From: a virus
DNA: 64,000 nt
IMG/VR virus record: IMGVR_UViG_3300035696_000020
Span: 39,892-103,891 of that record
Reading direction: 5' to 3' (one strand)
Shown here: positions 3,938 to 25,577 of the stretch, in pieces
Layout of the letters: each line of letters opens with the position of its first letter
How positions within the stretch are numbered: the first letter of the stretch is position 1
Position numbers and translations under genes: made by a program
The notes under the pieces: model-generated
What the model saw: only the letters and a program-made list of their open reading frames with translations
Told to the model about the DNA's origin: nothing
Database searches by the model: none

Positions 3938-4453
3938 GTGGAGCAATGGTATTGTGCTTTCTGCACGCCGCAGGGGGAGGCTCGTGCAAAGTTGGGAATT
4001 GAAGCCGCAGGGTTCGAAGCGTTCCTACCCGTAGAAAGGATACGCGGGCCACTGAGCGTAAAGCGCCGGCAACATGCTGTCATGGCCAGACCGCTGTTCC
4101 CACGCTACCTATTCGCGTACTTCGACGCAGGGACGGACCACCATAAGATCATCGCAATCGACGGGATCGAGCACCTACTACAGAACGCCGGGAAGTTGGT
4201 AAAGGTCCCGCAATCCACAATCGATGTGTTCCGCAATCTCCAGCGTGCGGGGGTGTTCGATAGGGTCGATCCGATGTCTGGCTTGAAGTCGGGGGACGCG
4301 GTAAAGATCACGGAGGGGCCATTTGCGGGGCTGATAGCTCGGGTGAAGTCGGCGCGGTCGAGGGACAGGATTAAGGTGTTGTTGGAGTTCTTGGGGCAGG
4401 CGACGGAAGCGGATTTGTCGGTGGAAATGATGGGAAAGGTGGGGCATGTTTGA
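3938..4453 (+). CDS. NusG/RfaH-family transcription antitermination factor
   Basis: WY...PQGE, PLFPRYLF (NGN domain), GDAVKITEGPFAG (KOW). Confidence 0.9.
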   Translation: MEQWYCAFCTPQGEARAKLGIEAAGFEAFLPVERIRGPLSVKRRQHAVMARPLFPRYLFAYFDAGTDHHKIIAIDGIEHLLQNAGKLVKVPQSTIDVFRNLQRAGVFDRVDPMSGLKSGDAVKITEGPFAGLIARVKSARSRDRIKVLLEFLGQATEADLSVEMMGKVGHV

Positions 4454-5687
4454 CAACGCAATCACTTGGGCGACATCTAATCCTATCTTGGTCGGTGGCG
4501 TAGGGACGCTTCTGTTTGGCTCTCTTCTGTATCTAGCGAAGGCTATTCCGTCAACGATCTACAATTCAATTCGTCGTATGTTGACGATTGATTTTACAAT
4601 GACTTCCGAAGCCTATCTTTATGAAGAGGTAATAGAGATTCTGAGCAAGTCAAGGGTTCCACTGTTCTGCCGTAGTTACGCGATTAGTCAAAAGACTGGC
4701 AGGACGCTAGGTGCGGGGTTTGGCTCATCGATAGGGTTCTATCGTGGACGATTGGTATTTTTCCACCGTCAGTTAATGGATGGTAAATTGTATTTGTTCG
4801 AACAAGTACATGCGACCTTGTTTTCTCGTAATACAAAATTGTTGGAGAAAATATTAGAGGAAGCGGCGGCGCCTAAGAATGATGATGATATTACTGTCTA
4901 TCTTTCGGTGGCAGCATCATGGAATTATTCAACAAAGAAACGCAAGCGACCTCTTGATACGGTATTCTGCAACAATGGAACGAAGCAGGATATCATCAAT
5001 GAAATCGATTGGTTCTTTGCAAATGAGGATTGGTATCGTCGTCGGGGGATGCCGTATAAGAAGGTGTTTTTGCTTTCAGGTCCTCCGGGGTGTGGCAAGT
5101 CAAGCCTGATTTATGCGATTTCATCGCACTTCAATCGTAACGTAGCTAGTATGACGAACGTTCTTAATGTTGGGCAACTTTTGTCTAATATTCCAGAGAA
5201 TGCCTTTGTCGCGATTGAAGACATTGATATGCTTGCGATATCTCGGGATGAGAGTCCGCAAGATATGCCGGCGCCGCCAACACTGACTGGTAAATTGGAA
5301 ATCAAGTCCATTTCTGCAAAAACAGCGTTGCACCATCTAATCAATACACTTGATGGACTTGCGACGCCAGAAGGAATGGTTGTCTTCATCACCACGAACT
5401 ACAAGGATCGTCTCGATCCAGCCCTTATCCGTCCTGGCCGGATCGACCATGACATTGAAATCGGCCCTCTCAATGCACAGGCAACCGAGGAAATGTTCGT
5501 ATCGTTCTACGGGGATGAGTATCGCTATTTGATTCGTGGCTACACGACCTCCCGTCATTTCATCCCGCAGACCGGCGCCGAGTGCCAACGTGTCTTCATG
5601 GCGTGTAAAAGCGCAAATGAGGCGGTGCACGAACTGCATCGGCGGGAGGGTGAGGTAGTGCATCGGTTGGGAACGGTATCGGGATAA
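4446..5687 (+). CDS. BCS1-like membrane-anchored AAA+ ATPase
   Basis: N-terminal TM helix; KRPLDTV; WYRRRGMPY; Walker A GPPGCGKSS; IEDID; LINTLDG; TTNYKDRLDPALIRPGRID. Confidence 0.85.
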   Translation: MFDNAITWATSNPILVGGVGTLLFGSLLYLAKAIPSTIYNSIRRMLTIDFTMTSEAYLYEEVIEILSKSRVPLFCRSYAISQKTGRTLGAGFGSSIGFYRGRLVFFHRQLMDGKLYLFEQVHATLFSRNTKLLEKILEEAAAPKNDDDITVYLSVAASWNYSTKKRKRPLDTVFCNNGTKQDIINEIDWFFANEDWYRRRGMPYKKVFLLSGPPGCGKSSLIYAISSHFNRNVASMTNVLNVGQLLSNIPENAFVAIEDIDMLAISRDESPQDMPAPPTLTGKLEIKSISAKTALHHLINTLDGLATPEGMVVFITTNYKDRLDPALIRPGRIDHDIEIGPLNAQATEEMFVSFYGDEYRYLIRGYTTSRHFIPQTGAECQRVFMACKSANEAVHELHRREGEVVHRLGTVSG

Positions 5688-5851
5688 AGTACGAATTGTG
5701 TGCGTAATGCGGCGAGTATGGTTGACAAAACGACGATAAAATGCAAGGGATGTGCGATGTTTGAACACGTATTCGGCGCGCTTATCATGTTCGGGGTGTT
5801 TGCGATCCTGGTCATTCTGTTGTGGCGCGGCGCTGGGAATGCCTAACTGAA

Positions 5852-6151
5852 ATGATACGCCTATTCCGAACTTGCTACGCTTGTCCTGAGCAATACGATG
5901 CCTATGATGGCGACAAACAGGTAGGGTATCTTAGGCTGCGGCACGGTTGCTTTACTGTAGAATGCCCAGATGTGGCTGGGACAATGGTTTATTCGGCTGG
6001 TCCAAGAGGGGATGGAATCTTTGAGGATGACGAGCGGGATTACTATCTGAGGTTCGCGGTGGACGCAATTCAACGGTGGCAGGCCGGTAGTAAGACTGAC
6101 CCTCCCGATGTGCAATATGAGATTGTAGAGGAAAAAGATGTGGAAGCCTGA
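5852..6151 (+). CDS. Conserved phage hypothetical protein
   Basis: TCYACPEQYDA...VGYLRLRHG; overlaps the next gene. Confidence 0.65.
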   Translation: MIRLFRTCYACPEQYDAYDGDKQVGYLRLRHGCFTVECPDVAGTMVYSAGPRGDGIFEDDERDYYLRFAVDAIQRWQAGSKTDPPDVQYEIVEEKDVEA

Positions 6152-7004
6152 CGTTTGCTTTTACCACAAGGATTGCCCAGACGGTTTTGCGGCTGCCTGG
6201 GTAGTCAAGCGTAAGTGGCCGGATGTAGTCTGCGAGCCGGTTAACTATGGCTTGGAACTGCCGGATGTAGACCTGACTAGCAAGAATCTGCTGGTGGTGG
6301 ACTTCTCGTTCAAGCCAGATGTGTGCCGGAAACTGGCGGAACGGGCGAAATCAATTGTGATAGCCGATCATCACAAAACGGCAAAGGCTGATTTGCAAGA
6401 GTTTATCGTCCCTGAAAATCTGACGTATGTGACGGCAGATATGTATCCGTCCTCTCAATCAATTCTTGCAAACTTCGATATGGACCGTTCCGGCGCGCGT
6501 ATGGCATGGGATTTCTGCTTCCCTGGCGAGGAATGCCCTATGCTCGTGCAGTTTGTCGAGGACCGGGACCTGTGGCGGTTCAAGTTGGAAGGGTCGCGGG
6601 CGTTTGGGTTGTATCTGCGAAGCGTGCCGTACAGTTTTGAGTCTTGGGACGGCGTTTACGAGTTTATGAAGGCAAACCCAAGCGTTCTCATGCAACAGGC
6701 GTACTGCATCGAGCAATTCTTCGACCAACAGATTGAGGATATGGTCAAAACCGCAATCTTCAAGAAGATCGGCAAGTGGGAAGTCCCAGTAGCCTATGCG
6801 CCGTATGCGTTCACAAGCGATCTGGCGCACCAATTGCTGAAAAAGTACCCTGACGCTCCGTTTGCGGCGGTAATCGTGGATGCCTACGGTGAGCAGACCT
6901 ATTCACTTCGATCAGAGGATGGTCGTGAGGACGTTAGCGAGGTGGCGAAGCAATACGGTGGGGGCGGGCATCGTAATGCAAGTGGTTTCCGCGTCCCGAG
7001 TTGA
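6138..7004 (+). CDS. DHH/DHHA1-family phosphoesterase
   Basis: YHKDCPDG, VVDFS, ADHHKT, EDRDLW, YSLRS, GGGGHRNASGF. Confidence 0.9.
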   Translation: MWKPDVCFYHKDCPDGFAAAWVVKRKWPDVVCEPVNYGLELPDVDLTSKNLLVVDFSFKPDVCRKLAERAKSIVIADHHKTAKADLQEFIVPENLTYVTADMYPSSQSILANFDMDRSGARMAWDFCFPGEECPMLVQFVEDRDLWRFKLEGSRAFGLYLRSVPYSFESWDGVYEFMKANPSVLMQQAYCIEQFFDQQIEDMVKTAIFKKIGKWEVPVAYAPYAFTSDLAHQLLKKYPDAPFAAVIVDAYGEQTYSLRSEDGREDVSEVAKQYGGGGHRNASGFRVPS

Positions 7005-7063
7005 GGTTACTTGACTTTTGCTGAAATCTATGGCAGCAATTGGAAATGAGAGAGGGGAATGTC

Positions 7064-7801
7064 ATGGCAAAGTTGAATCAGATTATCGCGATCGAAAAGG
7101 GTATCAAATCAAGGGTCTACAGTGAATTGACCGACTTGAACAAGGCTATCCAGAAGCCTGAATTGTTCAACGGCTTTTCTAAGACATATCAAAAGAAGGA
7201 TGAGGACGGCGAGGATTTGCCGGCTGAAAAGAAGCGCGTCCAGTTCATCGGTGATGAGGTGTTGCGCGCGGTCGAGCGGTCAATGACTGAATTGATGGAG
7301 GTCACTGCCCGTAAGGATTGGACGAACTGCGTCGCTACTGCGAATGTGGTGGTAGATGACCAAGTTCTGATCTCTGGGGCGCCAGTCAGTTTTCTGCTAT
7401 TTTTGGAAAAGCAGTTGACCGATCTTCGTACTTTGGTCGCCAATATGCCGGTTCTTGATGAGGCCGAGACTTGGAGCAAGGATTCCAACTCTGGCCTGTA
7501 TAAGACTGAGGCCACCTCGACGCATCGGACCAAGAAGGTTTCGAAGCCAATCGTTCTTTATCCAGCTACACCGGAGCATCCGGCGCAGACTCAGATGACA
7601 ACCGAGGATGTGATCGCCGGGTTTTGGCATCAGGTCAAACATAGCGGCGCACTTCCAAAGCCGGAAAAGCAAGACATTGCCAGCCGGGTTGAAAAGTTGC
7701 TCAAGGCTGTGAAAGAGGCTCGCGAGGCAGCGAACATTCACGATGAGGTCACATCGCCGGCTGTCGGTGGTGCGGTTTTTGGGTATCTGTTGGGAGATTA
7801 A
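7064..7801 (+). CDS. Uncharacterised helical protein (245 aa) coupled to the downstream ncRNA
   Basis: GAGGGG RBS, TTGACT promoter-like box near 7011; MAKLNQIIAIEKG..., LLFLEKQL, AVKEAREAAN; no catalytic motif recognised. Confidence 0.85.
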   Translation: MAKLNQIIAIEKGIKSRVYSELTDLNKAIQKPELFNGFSKTYQKKDEDGEDLPAEKKRVQFIGDEVLRAVERSMTELMEVTARKDWTNCVATANVVVDDQVLISGAPVSFLLFLEKQLTDLRTLVANMPVLDEAETWSKDSNSGLYKTEATSTHRTKKVSKPIVLYPATPEHPAQTQMTTEDVIAGFWHQVKHSGALPKPEKQDIASRVEKLLKAVKEAREAANIHDEVTSPAVGGAVFGYLLGD

Positions 7802-8160
7802 CGAACAAGCTCAAGCTTGTTGTGAAACTGAAAGACGAACGTGAAGGTTCGAGTCCTTCCCCCCGCACCAAAACCTGAGCGGGGGTGCCGGAACGCAGAC
7901 GGGCGGTCTAAAGCCGTGTTCGTTCAATCTCAGATTATTCACCCCAAGTTGAGCATTGTCGCGCTGATCCTATCAAGGTGCATGGTGAAAAGCTCGAAAG
8001 ACACTGGTTCAAATCCAGTCGGCCGCTCCAAAACCTGTGCGGCCGTAGTTCAGTGGAAGAACGTTCGTCCTGAATCTTATACCGTGTATTAAACGCCGAG
8101 GATTGGGTGAAGTCGCGATTAAGCGGTCCCGTGGCATCGGATACATGCCACGGGACACCA
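7802..8160 (+). ncRNA. Structured RNA with two circularly permuted tRNA-like modules (YrlA/two-piece-tmRNA-like topology)
   Basis: Twice: T arm, 7-nt acceptor 3' strand + NCCA, AAACCTG linker, complementary 5' strand, D arm (7843-7903 and 8003-8063); nested long-range stems; terminal 12-bp hairpin. Confidence 0.75.
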
Positions 8161-8165
8161 TTTTC
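8126..8165 (+). terminator. Probable intrinsic terminator or 3' hairpin of the ncRNA
   Basis: GTCCCGTGGCAT/ATGCCACGGGAC perfect 12-bp stem followed by ACCATTTTC. Confidence 0.5.
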
Positions 8166-8189
8166 GAGGTTTGGTCGCAAAAAAAGTGC

Positions 8190-8218
8190 TTGACTTGCCG
8201 TCAAAAGTGTGGTTCAAT
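8190..8218 (+). promoter_or_regulatory. Sigma70-like promoter heading the RNA island
   Basis: A-tract, TTGACT-17 bp-TTCAAT. Confidence 0.5.
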
Positions 8219-8505
8219 ACAAGGATGAAGTTTGCGACACGTAAATCCGCCACGAACTGTTGGCATCGGGAACGCCCGGTGTCGTTGTGTGGCATGAATC
8301 CCGAGGTCGGGATTTAATACGGTAGGGGAAACTCTGCCGAATCACAGGCAGAGATCACGGTTCCACTTCAAATCATGATCGAAGCCTGACTAGGCCCTCC
8401 ACGGATGTACTGGAGGGTCTGACGCCTTATTTTTCTGTGGATAAAGCCACTTAGGATAGGGCGTGCTGTTTGACATTGTGGATGTGAACGTTCACTGTTT
8501 GTTCC

Positions 8506-9580: not shown

Positions 9581-10395
9581 GCCAATTCCCTTGACTGGGA
9601 AGGATGACGCTGAACCTTTGGATAGAGGATCGTTAGACCTCGGGGCAGTACCGAGCTAGTCCACCACGAATACCATGGCAGTAAGCCGTTTTTATAGGAC
9701 GGGGGATGCTCTTGGTTATCGCGCCATTGCGAAGTCGGAACAATGGAGTCGCAGTAACGTGGTATTCCTGATGGGCTAGAAATAGGATCGATAGCGATAC
9801 GAAACCCAAAGCTGTGTCCGGTAGGCACCGATATTTGCCAGACGTTACGAGGATAGACAAGAATGGCTTTAACACCTTCACAAAGGGTAAGTTTGTGGCG
9901 TAAAAACAACCTAGAGAAAGCTCGCGAAATAGATAGAAGGTACAGAGCGAAGTACAAAGAGAAATATGGGTTTCTCCCTTCTACTAAGTCCGTGCGAAAA
10001 GCGAGACAACTTAATCCTGCCAAATTGCTTCTTAAGTCTGCCAAAAATAGGGCTAAGCAAAAAGGTATTCCGTTTAATATTACGGAAGAGGATATTCCTA
10101 TACCTGAATTTTGCCCAATCTTGAAGGTAAAGATCGAACTTGAACCGTTTCGACACAGACATGGGCCTTCAATAGATAGAAAGATTCCATCCTTAGGGTA
10201 TGTAAAGGGGAATGTGGCAGTCATATCCATGCGAGCTAATCTCATGAAAAGAAATTACACTCTAGATTTTTTTGAAGCCGTTGTTGCCTATCTTCGTAGC
10301 GAATAACATACGCCAACGACAACGTTGACATGGATGCGGTTCGCCTCGCGGCGTAACCAATCCGGGGGACGGGGCACCTAGCAACAGAACGCCCC
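9581..10395 (+). ncRNA. ssrA: Two-piece (permuted) alphaproteobacterial-type tmRNA, interrupted by a nuclease ORF
   Basis: T arm CTCGG-GGCAGTA-CCGAG + CTAGTCC-A-CCA (ends 9666); 5' strand GGGCTAG (9773) gives G3:U70; AAATAGGATCGA D loop; pk1 9818-9839; tag ANDNVDMDAVRLAA* 10312-10356; 3' GGGGCACCTAGCAACAGAACGCCCC. 5' boundary approximate. Confidence 0.9.
9863..10306 (+). CDS. His-Me finger (HNH-like) endonuclease inside the tmRNA coding piece
   Basis: AKNRAKQKGIPFNIT..CPIL..SIDRKIPSLGYVKGNVAVISMRANLMK; GAGGA RBS. Confidence 0.8.
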   Translation: MALTPSQRVSLWRKNNLEKAREIDRRYRAKYKEKYGFLPSTKSVRKARQLNPAKLLLKSAKNRAKQKGIPFNITEEDIPIPEFCPILKVKIELEPFRHRHGPSIDRKIPSLGYVKGNVAVISMRANLMKRNYTLDFFEAVVAYLRSE

Positions 10396-13022: not shown

Positions 13023-13037
13023 ACTTAGGAGGGGATG

Positions 13038-13817
13038 ATGACGGCACGCGAGGTTGCACTAGACAATGAAATCCTGCGCGGGGTTGTCGGTTCGACGGCC
13101 CATGGTACGGCAATCGAAGGCCAAGACGATCGCGACGAAATGGGAGTGTTTATCGAGCCTCCCGAGTACGTGTGTGGTCTGACGCCCTGCGATCATTACA
13201 TCTATCGGGATGCAGCCGAAGGAGAGCGTAGCAAGCCAGGAGATTTAGACTTGACGCTCTACAGCCTGCGCAAGTTCTGCCGGCTAGCGACGCAGGGTAA
13301 CCCAAGTGTGATAATTCTTCTATGGCTGCCACAGCATCTCATAGAGAAAACGTTAGGGCTTTCGCTAAAGTTGATGCGGTCTGCCTTCATCAGTAGAGAA
13401 TCCGGCAAGCGGTTCCTAGGCTACCTCGTCGCCCAGAAGATGAAGTTGAAAGGCGAGCGCGCCCATACGGTCAATCGGCCTGAATTGGTCGAAAAGTACG
13501 GTTACGACACAAAGTTTGCGATGCATGCTCTCCGATTGGGGTTCGAAGGCATCCAACTGTTGACGGAACGCCGTCTGTCATTACCAGTCGAAGAGCCTAA
13601 CCTGACGACGCTTCGAGCGGTGCGGAGTGGACAGGTCAAGTTTGCCGAGGCGTTGCAGTTGATCGAGGACGCGGAGATCAAACTTCGTGGCTTGCTCGAT
13701 AACTTCAACGTTGAAGCAGATCGGGATGCAATCAACAGGTTCATGGTCGAGGCTCATCAAGAGCATTGGCAAAAGAATAAGGAAGGGTGGCCGAGTGGCT
13801 TAAGGCAGCAATCTTGA
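13038..13817 (+). CDS. Pol-beta-superfamily nucleotidyltransferase
   Basis: VGSTAHGT....DDRDEMGVF; YSLRKF..LA.QGNPS; GYDTKFAMHALRL. Confidence 0.85.
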   Translation: MTAREVALDNEILRGVVGSTAHGTAIEGQDDRDEMGVFIEPPEYVCGLTPCDHYIYRDAAEGERSKPGDLDLTLYSLRKFCRLATQGNPSVIILLWLPQHLIEKTLGLSLKLMRSAFISRESGKRFLGYLVAQKMKLKGERAHTVNRPELVEKYGYDTKFAMHALRLGFEGIQLLTERRLSLPVEEPNLTTLRAVRSGQVKFAEALQLIEDAEIKLRGLLDNFNVEADRDAINRFMVEAHQEHWQKNKEGWPSGLRQQS

Positions 13818-25004: not shown

Positions 25005-25577
25005 ATGAGTGAAGGAATTGTAGAGATTGGCGTTTATGCGCCACCATTCGAGCCCTTCCAGAAGATAGCACGCCTTAGCCGCGAATGCTACGTGCTCGAA
25101 AAAATTGATGGCACGAATGGGCAAGTTTACATCACCGAGGATGGCGACATCTTTGCCGGTAGTCGCACTCGCTGGGTAACTCCCGAGCAAGACAACGCAG
25201 GCTTTGCGAAGTGGGTACAGGGCAATAAGATGGACCTGCTAAGGCTTGGTCCTGGCAGGCATTTTGGTGAATGGTGGGGCGCTGGTATCCAAAGGGGTTA
25301 CGGCCTCAAGGAAAAGCGGTTCTCGCTATTCAATGTGTCACGGTGGGGAGATGATGCGGTGCGGCCGGCGTGCTGCCATGTGGTGCCGGTGCTGTATCGT
25401 GGCGAGTTCGATACGCAGACGGTTCAGTATTATCTCGATCGGTTGCGCGAGCGTGGTTCATTGGCAGCGCCTGGGTTCAATCGTCCCGAGGGTATCGTAG
25501 TCTACCACACTGCGGGCAATCTCCTATTCAAGAAGACGATCGAGGACGACGCAACTCCGAAAAGTATGGTGGCGTGA
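25005..25577 (+). CDS. ATP-dependent RNA ligase-like protein (adenylation domain only)
   Basis: Motif I EKIDGTN, GSR, FGEWWG, FSLF, PEGIVV, KK. Confidence 0.8.
   Translation: MSEGIVEIGVYAPPFEPFQKIARLSRECYVLEKIDGTNGQVYITEDGDIFAGSRTRWVTPEQDNAGFAKWVQGNKMDLLRLGPGRHFGEWWGAGIQRGYGLKEKRFSLFNVSRWGDDAVRPACCHVVPVLYRGEFDTQTVQYYLDRLRERGSLAAPGFNRPEGIVVYHTAGNLLFKKTIEDDATPKSMVA

What the first reader, a model, noticed from the sequence alone, without database searches (positions are those of the whole stretch)
7064..8160. Candidate new ribonucleoprotein system: unknown 245-aa protein plus an RNA with two circularly permuted, CCA-bearing tRNA modules
Seen: an RNA starts right at the stop codon and holds two modules in the order T arm, acceptor 3' strand, NCCA, linker, acceptor 5' strand, D arm. 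Module 1: GAAGG-TTCGAGT-CCTTC CCCCCGC A CCA aaacctga GCGGGGG (7843-7885), then a Leu/Ser-like D region. Module 2: ACTGG-TTCAAAT-CCAGT CGGCCGC T CCA aaacctgt GCGGCCG TA GTTC-AGTGGAA-GAAC (8003-8063). Both acceptor stems are perfect 7-bp helices of different sequence, while the linker CCAAAACCTG is identical. The anticodon arm is replaced by scaffold helices: ACGAAC/GTTCGT, GGTGCATGGT/ACCGTGTATT, and TTCACCCCAA/TTGGGTGAA with a bulged C. There are also two TCA-loop hairpins (7804-7821, 7926-7936) and a terminal 12-bp stem. Known: this permuted topology occurs in bacterial YrlA Y RNAs (Ro60 partner) and two-piece tmRNA, but here there is no Ro60/TROVE gene, no tag ORF and two modules. Inference: a protein-bound tRNA mimic, either a decoy for tRNA-targeting defences or an RNase P-processed multi-piece RNA with two chargeable CCA ends, sitting just upstream of the tRNA island.
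Basis: partly seen in the sequence, partly recalled or inferred. Interest (0 to 1): 0.92.

Follow-up and report, generated by a model that had tools for sequence, protein, structure and literature searches.

The report
Two-headed tRNA-mimic RNA beside DUF7873
A phage gene of unknown function (DUF7873) is followed by a folded RNA of about 360 bases that carries two back-to-front tRNA look-alikes without anticodons; the same gene-plus-RNA pair recurs in hundreds of phages and bacteria and appears in no RNA library or paper I could search, so it is probably an undescribed RNA-protein unit.

Summary
Both permuted modules lie at the stated coordinates. Each runs T arm, acceptor 3' strand, N73-CCA, 8-nt linker, acceptor 5' strand, D arm.

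The protein is not an orphan: it is Pfam DUF7873 (E 3.6e-95). The family has about 2,700 clusters at 50% identity, in phages and in at least six bacterial phyla.

The same RNA follows the gene in nearly every locus I tested:
- 57 of 87 sources held two strict modules.
- 77 of 80 bacterial loci had at least one module and 59 had two, against 3 and 6 control hits.
- The most distant phage homologs (27-32% identity) also carry a module.

Covariation is strong: Arm II is 86.6% paired against 56.0% in shuffles.

The RNA folds into two long arms, each capped by an anticodon-less tRNA body. Head 1 copies the tRNA-Leu D arm and A73.

No Rfam 15 family matches the RNA. No Ro60 gene is present in this phage or in five other carrier phages. 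DUF7873 has no recognisable fold and is predicted to form a homodimer.

Binding, RNase P cutting and charging remain inferences; no transcript data cover the RNA.

The closest known system is Ro60/YrlA, especially the RNase P-cleaved M. smegmatis form.

This scan has already reported the same class on at least 55 other genomes.

The parts
7064..7801 (+). DUF7873 protein gene (245 aa; ATG 7064, stop TAA 7799-7801)
   Evidence: Pfam PF25283, E 3.6e-95 over residues 1-243. AlphaFold2 model has pLDDT 91.4. Homodimer predicted: ipSAE 0.73, best control 0.00.
7802..8164 (+). Whole structured RNA, starting at the stop codon and ending at the terminal hairpin plus U run
   Evidence: The minimum-energy fold of 7802-8127 gives two arms, each capped by a tRNA-like body: -110.4 kcal/mol, z -2.34. 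Conserved blocks and covariation are seen in relatives.
7805..7840 (+). 5' strand of Arm I: about four tandem hexamers of type RRYTNA, then ACGAAC (the strand corresponding to the 3' half of a tRNA anticodon stem, i.e. the half next to the T arm, head 1)
   Evidence: T.A motifs recur at 6-nt spacing 177 times in 97 RNAs, against 19 in shuffles. The core helix 7809-7814 with 7949-7954 covaries at its variable position.
7843..7902 (+). Head 1: T arm 7843-7859, acceptor 3' strand 7860-7866, A73 7867, CCA 7868-7870, linker 7871-7878, acceptor 5' strand 7879-7885, Leu-type D arm 7888-7902
   Evidence: Read directly. T, acceptor and D stems are 99% paired with many pair types in 43 sequences. The D arm pattern matches the phage's own three tRNA-Leu genes.
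7903..7917 (+). Extra hairpin after the D arm of head 1; it is not an anticodon arm
   Evidence: Relatives have hairpins of other lengths here, with UUCG or GAAG loops, or no hairpin at all.
7918..7958 (+). 3' strand of Arm I (GTTCGT, TCAG, TTCAC, CAAG, TTGAGC, TTG)
   Evidence: Minimum-energy fold. A per-sequence helix next to the T arm is found in 45 of 50 sequences. Support for the inner helices is only partial.
7959..7998 (+). 5' strand of Arm II: TCGCG 7959-7963, GATCCT 7966-7971, conserved loop ATCAAGG 7972-7978, TGCATGG 7979-7985, CGAA 7995-7998
   Evidence: Helices 7966-7971 with 8099-8104 and 7979-7985 with 8082-8088 are 87-95% paired, with 4-6 pair types per position. An ATCGA-like motif occurs in 77 of 97 RNAs, against 9 in shuffles.
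8003..8067 (+). Head 2: T arm 8003-8019, acceptor 3' strand 8020-8026, U73 8027, CCA 8028-8030, linker 8031-8038, acceptor 5' strand 8039-8045, D arm 8048-8062, anticodon-stem strand 8064-8067
   Evidence: Read directly. T, acceptor and D stems are 97-100% paired in 46 sequences.
8068..8118 (+). 3' strand of Arm II, including the most conserved block TTAAACGCCG (8089-8098)
   Evidence: A TTAAACG-like motif occurs in 86 of 97 RNAs, against 15 in shuffles, at a median of 44 nt after the acceptor 5' strand.
8126..8164 (+). Terminal 12-bp hairpin (8126-8137 with 8145-8156) with loop motif GGATA (8139-8143), then ACCAUUUU; a likely terminator and conserved element
   Evidence: Read directly. GG[AC]TA occurs in the tail of 77 of 97 RNAs, against 20 in shuffles. 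The simple terminator scan did not flag it because the T run is short.

Best explanation
The locus is one member of a large, apparently undescribed two-part cassette: the DUF7873 gene and, transcribed right behind it, a roughly 360-nt RNA.

Shown here:
- The RNA folds into two long irregular stems.
- Each stem is capped by a complete tRNA body (acceptor, T and D arms, and the start of an anticodon stem) with the chain ends moved to the anticodon side. There is no anticodon loop.
- Head 1 copies tRNA-Leu (a 3-bp D stem with a GAAyrGCAGA-type loop, and A73).
- Head 2 is an ordinary type I body with G73 or U73.

Inferred:
- A DUF7873 homodimer binds the two pseudo-symmetric arms. Likely contact sites are the sequence-conserved parts that do not covary: the hexamer tract, the ATCGA/TTAAACGCCG internal loop and the GGATA loop.
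- The two tRNA heads stay exposed to enzymes that handle tRNA.
- RNase P cuts before G7879 and G8039, and the 3' sides are trimmed or rebuilt to CCA, as shown for M. smegmatis YrlA. This would leave a three-piece RNA held together by the acceptor stems.
- The particle then serves as a tRNA-shaped platform in tRNA or RNA quality control, repair or conflict, in the way Ro60/Y RNA does. The phage copy would serve its large tRNA set.
For: Family and linkage:
- Pfam DUF7873, E 3.6e-95.
- 75 phage records, 338 IMG/VR loci, at least 591 bacterial genome loci and 2,709 clusters hold the family.
- Two strict modules lie downstream in 57 of 87 sources. The looser scan found none in only 7, two of which hold under 200 nt of downstream sequence.
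- 77 of 80 bacterial loci have at least one module, against 3 and 6 control hits.
- Klebsiella phage KpLz-2_45 and Ralstonia phiRSL1, at 29-32% protein identity, keep both heads.
- Bacterial neighbours are unrelated genes, so the pair is self-contained.

Structure:
- Arm II: 86.6% paired against 56.0% in shuffles; covariation score 0.807 against 0.231; slid controls 0.13-0.20.
- Arm I: 74.4% paired against 59.8%; covariation score 0.365 against 0.138.
- The minimum-energy fold gives the same two arms.

Signs of tRNA-like end processing, over 97 RNAs:
- Acceptor stems are exactly 7 bp.
- +1 is G in 85% (head 1) and 66% (head 2).
- -1 is U in 43% and 58%.
- N73 is A in 86% of head 1, and G or U in 94% of head 2.
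- Position 74 is C in roughly 75-90%.
- CCA is encoded in 42-44%.
- Precedent: the 7-bp-stem YrlA of M. smegmatis is cut by RNase P and receives CCA in vivo (PMC4201824).

Leu likeness: the D arm and A73 match the phage's own tRNA-Leu genes.

Dimer: ipSAE 0.73, 0.73 and 0.74; best of 3 controls 0.00; the runs agree in at least 97% of contacts; partner pLDDT 90. The mark was reached by 20 of 30 proteins solved as pairs and 1 of 23 solved as single chains.

Independence from Ro60:
- No TROVE gene in this complete genome or in 5 other carrier phages.
- 3 of 5 carrier bacteria have none, and the 2 that do have it far from the cassette.

Context: the phage also encodes an RlaP RNA-repair nucleotidyltransferase inside the tRNA island and an RNA-ligase-family protein.
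Against: - There are no transcript, end-mapping, binding or charging data for any member.
- DUF7873 is mildly acidic (median pI 6.2). It has no recognisable RNA-binding fold.
- Many members have acceptor loops of only 5-8 nt without CCA. These could stay closed, as in Salmonella YrlA.
- The inner helices of Arm I are weakly supported across the family.
- Gene linkage alone does not prove a physical complex. DUF7873 could instead be an enzyme acting on or with the RNA.
- An earlier check within this scan priced the protein-binds-RNA claim at only 22 in 100.
Confidence: 0.5

Rival explanations
1. The RNA and DUF7873 work in one pathway but do not form a stable particle. DUF7873 would be an enzyme or chaperone that acts on the RNA or on tRNAs. 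The RNA would work alone as a tRNA mimic, for example as a sponge or decoy for nucleases or toxins that recognise the tRNA elbow, acceptor end or CCA.
For: - Linkage evidence is the same as for the main reading.
- The protein is acidic and has conserved polar motifs such as HPAQ and RTKK.
- Phage copies sit in tRNA islands.
- The phage carries RNA-repair genes.
Against: - The RNA has large blocks that are conserved in sequence but do not covary: the hexamer tract, the TTAAACGCCG loop and the GGATA loop. Such blocks are what a bound partner would read.
- The cassette also lives in bacterial chromosomes with no defence or repair neighbours.
Confidence: 0.2
2. The RNA is a cis-acting 3' untranslated element of the DUF7873 mRNA. 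The tRNA-like bodies would recruit RNase P to set and protect the mRNA 3' end, in the way the MALAT1 tRNA-like element does. It would have no function of its own.
For: - The RNA starts at the stop codon with no promoter-like site between.
- A cut at head 1 would leave the mRNA ending in a tRNA-like half.
Against: - One head would suffice, yet two heads plus 200 nt of conserved scaffold are kept across phyla.
- In some loci the RNA lies 400-600 nt from the stop codon.
Confidence: 0.1
3. It is a YrlA-type Y RNA that uses the host's Ro60 (Rsr).
For: - The module order (T, acceptor stem-loop, D, on a stem) is the same (PMC4201824).
- M. smegmatis has two tandem Y RNAs from one precursor.
Against: - No Rfam YrlA match at E up to 10 on this RNA, and no match at gathering score on 18 loci.
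- The Ro-binding motif GNCGAAN0-1G is not enriched: 19 of 97 RNAs against 25 of 97 in shuffles.
- No TROVE gene in 6 carrier phages or in 3 of 5 carrier bacteria, and where present it is never adjacent.
Confidence: 0.07
4. The modules are true split or permuted tRNAs, or a further two-piece tmRNA, and take part in decoding or ribosome rescue.
For: - Weak partial matches to the permuted tmRNA model over the T arm, acceptor and CCA: 13 bits, E about 2.5.
- Encoded CCA.
- Head 1 is Leu-like.
Against: - No anticodon loop. The hairpin after the D arm varies and carries UUCG or GAAG loops in relatives.
- G3:U70 is rare: 2 of 97 and 4 of 97.
- No full tmRNA match, while the phage has a real two-piece tmRNA at 9585-9903.
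- ARAGORN calls no gene here.
Confidence: 0.05

Closest known systems
YrlA / YrlB Y RNAs with Ro60 (Rsr), especially Mycobacterium smegmatis YrlA
   Same: - A tRNA body with T arm, acceptor stem-loop and D arm in that order sits at the tip of a stem and has no anticodon loop.
- It is encoded next to its protein partner.
- The M. smegmatis form has a 7-bp acceptor stem, is cut by RNase P and receives CCA. Two RNAs come from one precursor there.
   Different: - Here there are two heads in a single fold.
- Head 1 is Leu-type.
- The conserved motifs differ: a hexamer tract, TTAAACGCCG and GGATA, with no GNCGAA motif.
- The partner is DUF7873, a 245-aa protein of no known fold, rather than the Ro60 ring.
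- No Rfam match.
Two-piece (permuted) tmRNA with SmpB
   Same: - The gene order is T arm, acceptor 3' strand, CCA, spacer, acceptor 5' strand.
- The spacer is removed, and the pieces are held together by base pairing.
- A long helix stands in place of the anticodon stem.
   Different: - No tag reading frame or pseudoknots.
- No G3:U70 alanine mark.
- Two heads.
- The phage has a separate, genuine two-piece tmRNA.
[quoted passage not shown]
   Same: The idea of a tRNA-like RNA paired with a protein other than Ro60.
   Different: - DUF7873 shows no Band-7/SPFH match by Pfam or by fold search.
- b7a-tRNA is described as resembling an authentic tRNA and as lying next to RtcB. This phage has no RtcB.
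Permuted tRNA genes of Cyanidioschyzon merolae and some algae and archaea (from my own knowledge)
   Same: The 3' half is encoded upstream of the 5' half, joined through the acceptor ends.
   Different: Those yield normal decoding tRNAs with anticodons through a circular intermediate. Here there is no anticodon loop.

Membership tests
Pfam DUF7873 (PF25283) | Full-length match above the curated cut-off of 27 bits | tested here: met
   318.8 bits, E 3.6e-95, residues 1-243 on profile positions 1-242 of 244. One copy in the genome.
DUF7873-linked two-headed tRNA-mimic RNA (class defined here and in earlier notes of this scan) | Two permuted tRNA modules 150-200 nt apart, downstream of a DUF7873 gene on the same strand | tested here: met
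   Heads lie 42 and 202 nt after the stop codon. The same layout is seen in 57 of 87 viral-side sources and 59 of 80 bacterial loci.
DUF7873-linked two-headed tRNA-mimic RNA | Conserved blocks: hexamer tract, ATCGA-like loop, TTAAACG-like loop, GG[AC]TA terminal loop | tested here: met
   Window positions 7805-7831, ATCAAGG 7972-7978, 8089-8098 and 8139-8143. Family frequencies are 77-86 of 97 against 9-20 in shuffles.
YrlA (Y RNA-like A) | Match to the Rfam covariance model | tested here: not met
   No YrlA row at E up to 10 on 7700-8450. No match at gathering score on 18 related loci.
YrlA (Y RNA-like A) | GNCGAAN0-1G Ro-binding motif near the 5' end | tested here: not met
   The window has GACGAACG at 7834-7841 by letter. 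The motif is present in only 19 of 97 family RNAs against 25 of 97 in shuffles, and it is absent in the closest relatives.
YrlA (Y RNA-like A) | Encoded within about 4 kb of a Ro60/TROVE gene on the same strand | tested here: not met
   No TROVE gene in the complete 103,891-bp genome or in 5 other carrier phages.
YrlA (Y RNA-like A) | T arm, acceptor-like stem-loop and D arm in this order, on a stem | tested here: met
Two-piece tmRNA | Full model match, tag reading frame, G3:U70 | tested here: not met
   Only 13-bit partial matches. The 3:70 pair is G-C in both heads of the window, and G-U occurs in only 2 and 4 of 97.
Canonical or permuted decoding tRNA | Anticodon stem-loop of 7 nt with a conserved U33 | tested here: not met
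   ARAGORN and Rfam tRNA call nothing here. The only candidate hairpin (7903-7917) is variable in relatives.
Bacterial RNase P substrate | 7-bp acceptor stacked on a 5-bp T stem, D/T elbow, G+1, U-1 preference, RCCA | tested here: inconclusive
   The sequence features are present in the window and enriched in the family. Cleavage itself cannot be tested with these tools.
Band-7 (SPFH) partner of b7a-tRNA | Band-7 domain in the linked protein | tested here: inconclusive
   No Band_7 match in Pfam at E up to 0.1. No SPFH chain appears among the fold-search rows.

The most novel reading that the evidence does not exclude
After RNase P cutting and CCA completion, the RNA becomes a three-piece molecule with two free acceptor ends, held on a DUF7873 dimer. 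At least the Leu-like head is aminoacylated. LeuRS needs A73 and the D/T core but not the anticodon (my own knowledge, not checked here). The particle would then present one or two aminoacyl ends outside the ribosome, for example as a sensor or sink of charging state, or as a donor for a non-ribosomal aminoacyl transfer.
Probability: 0.12. Interest if true: 0.95.

Novelty: new variant of a known kind. Interest (0 to 1): 0.8.

Why it matters
If DUF7873 and this RNA form a particle, it would be a second, Ro60-independent family of tRNA-mimic ribonucleoproteins. It is spread over thousands of protein clusters in bacteria and large phages and has a protein fold with no known relative.

It would give a function to a large DUF family and to the unannotated 400-500 nt gaps in many deposited phage genomes. 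Examples are Arthrobacter phage Mimi, Gordonia phages Phendrix and GodonK, Klebsiella jumbo phages and Ralstonia phiRSL1.

The question is directly testable in culturable hosts. [quoted passage not shown]

Tried and rejected
- **Transcript evidence.** Only DNA metagenomes hold the stretch. The one RNA run (a wetland metatranscriptome) laid a single contig on 8242-8400, outside the RNA. Nothing can be said about expression or ends.
- **Fold of DUF7873.** Foldseek against PDB and BFVD gave nothing at E up to 0.001. The weak Cas7/Cascade rows have TM about 0.12 and are not credible. VIA wide search gave at best Z 8.9, on generic helical bundles. A PDB profile search and the ESM Atlas gave nothing usable.
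- **Does encoded CCA track the CCA habit of neighbouring ordinary tRNA genes?** Too few loci with tRNAs to tell: 9 of 12 against 5 of 10.
At or below about 60% paired at nearly every position in relatives, so rejected.
- **Anticodon reading of the hairpin 7903-7917.** Rejected.
- **Best-run complementarity against shuffles, for the anticodon-stem analogues.** The statistic did not discriminate (6.4 against 5.5). Only the constant geometry is informative.
- **Far relatives of the protein.** The representative search lists only the best 150 of 2,709, so the weakest members could not be fetched. I used GenBank phages at 27-33% identity instead.
- **Papers.** Burroughs and Aravind 2016 and the 2020 Ro60 review are not held. 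Searches for DUF7873 and for permuted or tRNA-like phage RNAs found no description.
- **Covariance model.** None was built, because the full RNA exceeds the practical model size.
Full report
**What is in the window.**
The window is the right-hand 64 kb of a complete 103,891-bp phage genome with terminal repeats, assembled from a peat metagenome. The ORF at 7064-7801 is a full-length member of Pfam DUF7873 (E 3.6e-95). It matches no PHROG family.

Upstream lie three genes:
- a NusG-like gene;
- a BCS1-like AAA ATPase;
- a DHH phosphoesterase.

Downstream lie an HNH endonuclease, a genuine two-piece alpha-type tmRNA (9585-9903) and 27 or more tRNA genes.

The string CCAAAACCTG occurs only at the two acceptor loops.

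**Is it a known RNA?**
At gathering score, Rfam 15 finds nothing between 7800 and 8165. At E up to 10, the only relevant rows are 13-bit partial matches of the permuted tmRNA model. These cover just the T arm, acceptor strand, CCA and acceptor strand. No YrlA row appears. Eighteen related loci also gave only tRNA and tmRNA matches. ARAGORN calls no gene here.

**Linkage to DUF7873.**
tblastn found the protein in 75 GenBank phage records, with hosts in Arthrobacter, Gordonia, Rhodococcus, Pseudanabaena, Microcoleus, Rhizobium, Ralstonia, Klebsiella/Serratia and Vibrio.
- In four annotated phages, the gene sits inside or beside a tRNA island and is followed by an unannotated gap of 400-500 nt.
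- A strict script demanded a 5-bp T stem, a TTCRA-type loop, a 7-nt strand and, after a spacer, its perfect complement followed by a D arm. It found two modules 120-260 nt apart in 57 of 87 sources.
- With longer spacers allowed, only 7 sources had none, and two of those are truncated.
- The Klebsiella jumbo phage KpLz-2_45 (32% identity) and Ralstonia phiRSL1 (29%) keep both heads.
- Vibrio phage K481 (27%) and Rhizobium phage RHph_TM16 keep one head. A Microcoleus phage has one with a spacer of about 100 nt, which I read by eye.

The family is also cellular. At least 591 loci were found in species-representative bacterial genomes, including Streptomyces, Nocardia, Myxococcota, Acidobacteriota, Abditibacteriota and Planctomycetota.
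- 77 of 80 loci tested have at least one module downstream and 59 have two. The controls gave 3 hits on the opposite strand and 6 in upstream regions.
- The neighbours there are unrelated housekeeping genes.
- A profile search counts 2,709 clusters at 50% identity. Nearly all of the best 150 are 241-257 aa long (outliers of 216 and 345 aa), with no evident fusion partner.

My structure-aware scan does not agree with that low figure. It agrees with the later fold test of 20 of 21 cited in the same note.

**Architecture.**
The minimum-energy fold of 7802-8127 gives two long arms (-110.4 kcal/mol, z -2.34).

Arm I:
- The strand 7805-7840 pairs with 7918-7958.
- The arm is capped by head 1.

Arm II:
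- The strand 7959-7998 pairs with 8064-8118.
- The arm is capped by head 2.
- On a 46-sequence alignment of phage and bacterial members, 86.6% of cells are paired, against 56.0% in shuffles.
- The covariation score is 0.807 against 0.231, and the slid controls give 0.13-0.20.
- The acceptor and T stems were part of the selection, so their perfection is by construction.
- The helices 7966-7971 with 8099-8104, 7979-7985 with 8082-8088, and the D stem were not selected. They are 87-97% paired, with up to six pair types per position.

On a 43-sequence alignment of Arm I, the tRNA stems and the core helix 7809-7814 with 7949-7954 are supported. The inner helices are weak. The stem next to the T arm is seen sequence by sequence, in constant geometry but with different letters.

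The hairpin at 7903-7917 is replaced in relatives by hairpins with UUCG or GAAG loops, or is absent. It is therefore not an anticodon arm.

**Features conserved in sequence rather than by pairing.**
- The 5' strand is built of tandem hexamers of type RRYTNA. T.A motifs at 6-nt spacing occur 177 times in 97 RNAs, against 19 in shuffles, and 120 times at 12-nt spacing.
- An ATCGA-like motif (77 of 97) faces a TTAAACG-like motif (86 of 97) across an internal loop of Arm II.
- The terminal hairpin carries GG[AC]TA (77 of 97).
- Shuffled counts for these three are 9, 15 and 20.
- These are the natural candidates for protein contacts. That reading is inference.

**tRNA-likeness of the heads.**
Counts over 97 distinct RNAs:

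| Feature | Head 1 | Head 2 |
|---|---|---|
| N73 | A 86% | G 55%, U 39% |
| +1 | G 85% | G 66% |
| -1 | U 43% | U 58% |
| CCA encoded | 42% | 44% |

- Position 74 is C in most, even where CCA is incomplete.
- G3:U70 is rare.
- The D arm of head 1 (TG, a 3-bp stem, a GAAyrGCAGA-type loop) matches the three tRNA-Leu genes of this phage.
- The seven-pair acceptor stem, G+1, the U-1 preference and RCCA are the known marks of bacterial RNase P substrates.
- M. smegmatis YrlA has a seven-pair stem, is cut by RNase P in vitro and in vivo, and receives CCA. Its two halves stay with Rsr (PMC4201824).
- Salmonella YrlA has six pairs and stays closed (10.1101/312249).
- I therefore rate processing of this RNA as about even odds. 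It is not shown.

**The protein.**
- The AlphaFold2 model is confident: pLDDT 91.4, pTM 0.74. It shows four long helices packed against long beta hairpins.
- No library gave a credible relative.
- Two copies are predicted to form a symmetric, intertwined dimer.
  - ipSAE was 0.73, 0.73 and 0.74, and the best of three controls was 0.00.
  - The runs agree in at least 97% of their contacts, and the partner pLDDT is 90.
  - The mark was reached by 20 of 30 proteins solved as pairs and 1 of 23 solved as single chains. These counts hold only roughly, because my own alignment was used.
- A dimer would fit an RNA made of two similar arms. That match is inference.
- The protein is mildly acidic, with median pI 6.2. 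This gives no electrostatic support for RNA binding.

**Independence from Ro60, and context.**
- This genome has no TROVE gene, and neither do five other carrier phage genomes.
- Of five carrier bacteria, three have none and two have one far from the cassette.
- The YrlA motif GNCGAAN0-1G is not enriched: 19 of 97 against 25 of 97 in shuffles.
- The phage has an RlaP RNA-repair nucleotidyltransferase (13035-13817) inside the tRNA island and an RNA-ligase-family gene. It has no RtcB and no CCA-adding enzyme.
- RlaP adds one or two nucleotides to damaged RNA 3' ends (PMC12776372).

**Comparison and novelty.**
The design follows the YrlA plan and, in its gene order, the plan of two-piece tmRNA. 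It fails the tested defining features of both families. In the papers I could search, the nearest idea is a tRNA-like RNA with a partner other than Ro60, the Band-7-associated tRNA. I know this only from its description in 10.1101/312249. DUF7873 shows no Band-7 signal. I found no paper naming DUF7873 or this RNA.

This scan has already reported the same class on at least 55 other genomes, with the same closest relative. My tests were made independently on this window.

I file it as a new variant of a known kind: a permuted tRNA-mimic RNA with a dedicated protein. Interest is high because the family is large, the partner fold is unknown and the key experiments are simple.

Noticed in passing
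window 9585-10306: A genuine two-piece alpha-proteobacterial-type tmRNA (Rfam RF04321 at 59.8 bits, RF01849 at 58.4 bits). Its acceptor is GGGCUAG/CUAGUCC-ACCA with G3:U70. A 147-aa HNH-type endonuclease ORF (9863-10306) starts inside the matched region.
   Followed up: partly
window 13035-13817 and 25083-25517: An RlaP (PF10127) RNA-repair nucleotidyltransferase lies inside the tRNA island. An RNA_ligase-family (PF09414) gene lies elsewhere in the genome. The genome has no RtcB and no CCA-adding enzyme.
   Followed up: partly
window 8242-8400: This non-coding stretch downstream of the RNA is the only part of 7000-8400 covered by a wetland metatranscriptome contig (95-99% alike). A lake metagenome contig covers it too. 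It may be another small RNA or a leader. Only a weak chance-level Rfam row falls here.
   Followed up: no
window 3938-7004: A NusG-like antiterminator (3938-4453), a BCS1-like AAA ATPase (4446-5687) and a DHH phosphoesterase (6138-7004) lie directly upstream of DUF7873 on the same strand. This order was not seen in the bacterial loci.
   Followed up: partly
L171 (Vibrio phage K481) 2756-3240: A one-headed variant. It has the hexamer tract and a single Leu-like permuted head with a 26-nt hairpin spacer. An ordinary tRNA gene stands where the second head usually is.
   Followed up: partly
L004 (Gordonia phage Phendrix) 2072-2600: A one-piece tmRNA (RF00023, 89 bits) in the same tRNA island as the DUF7873 cassette. 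It is not annotated in the stretch of the record that I viewed.
   Followed up: no
window 7871-7878 and 8031-8038; L017, L030: The spacer word ACCTG(A/T), just before the acceptor 5' strand, is shared by both heads here and by the heads of two related IMG/VR phages. Spacers elsewhere vary from 0 to about 70 nt, and some form their own hairpins.
   Followed up: no
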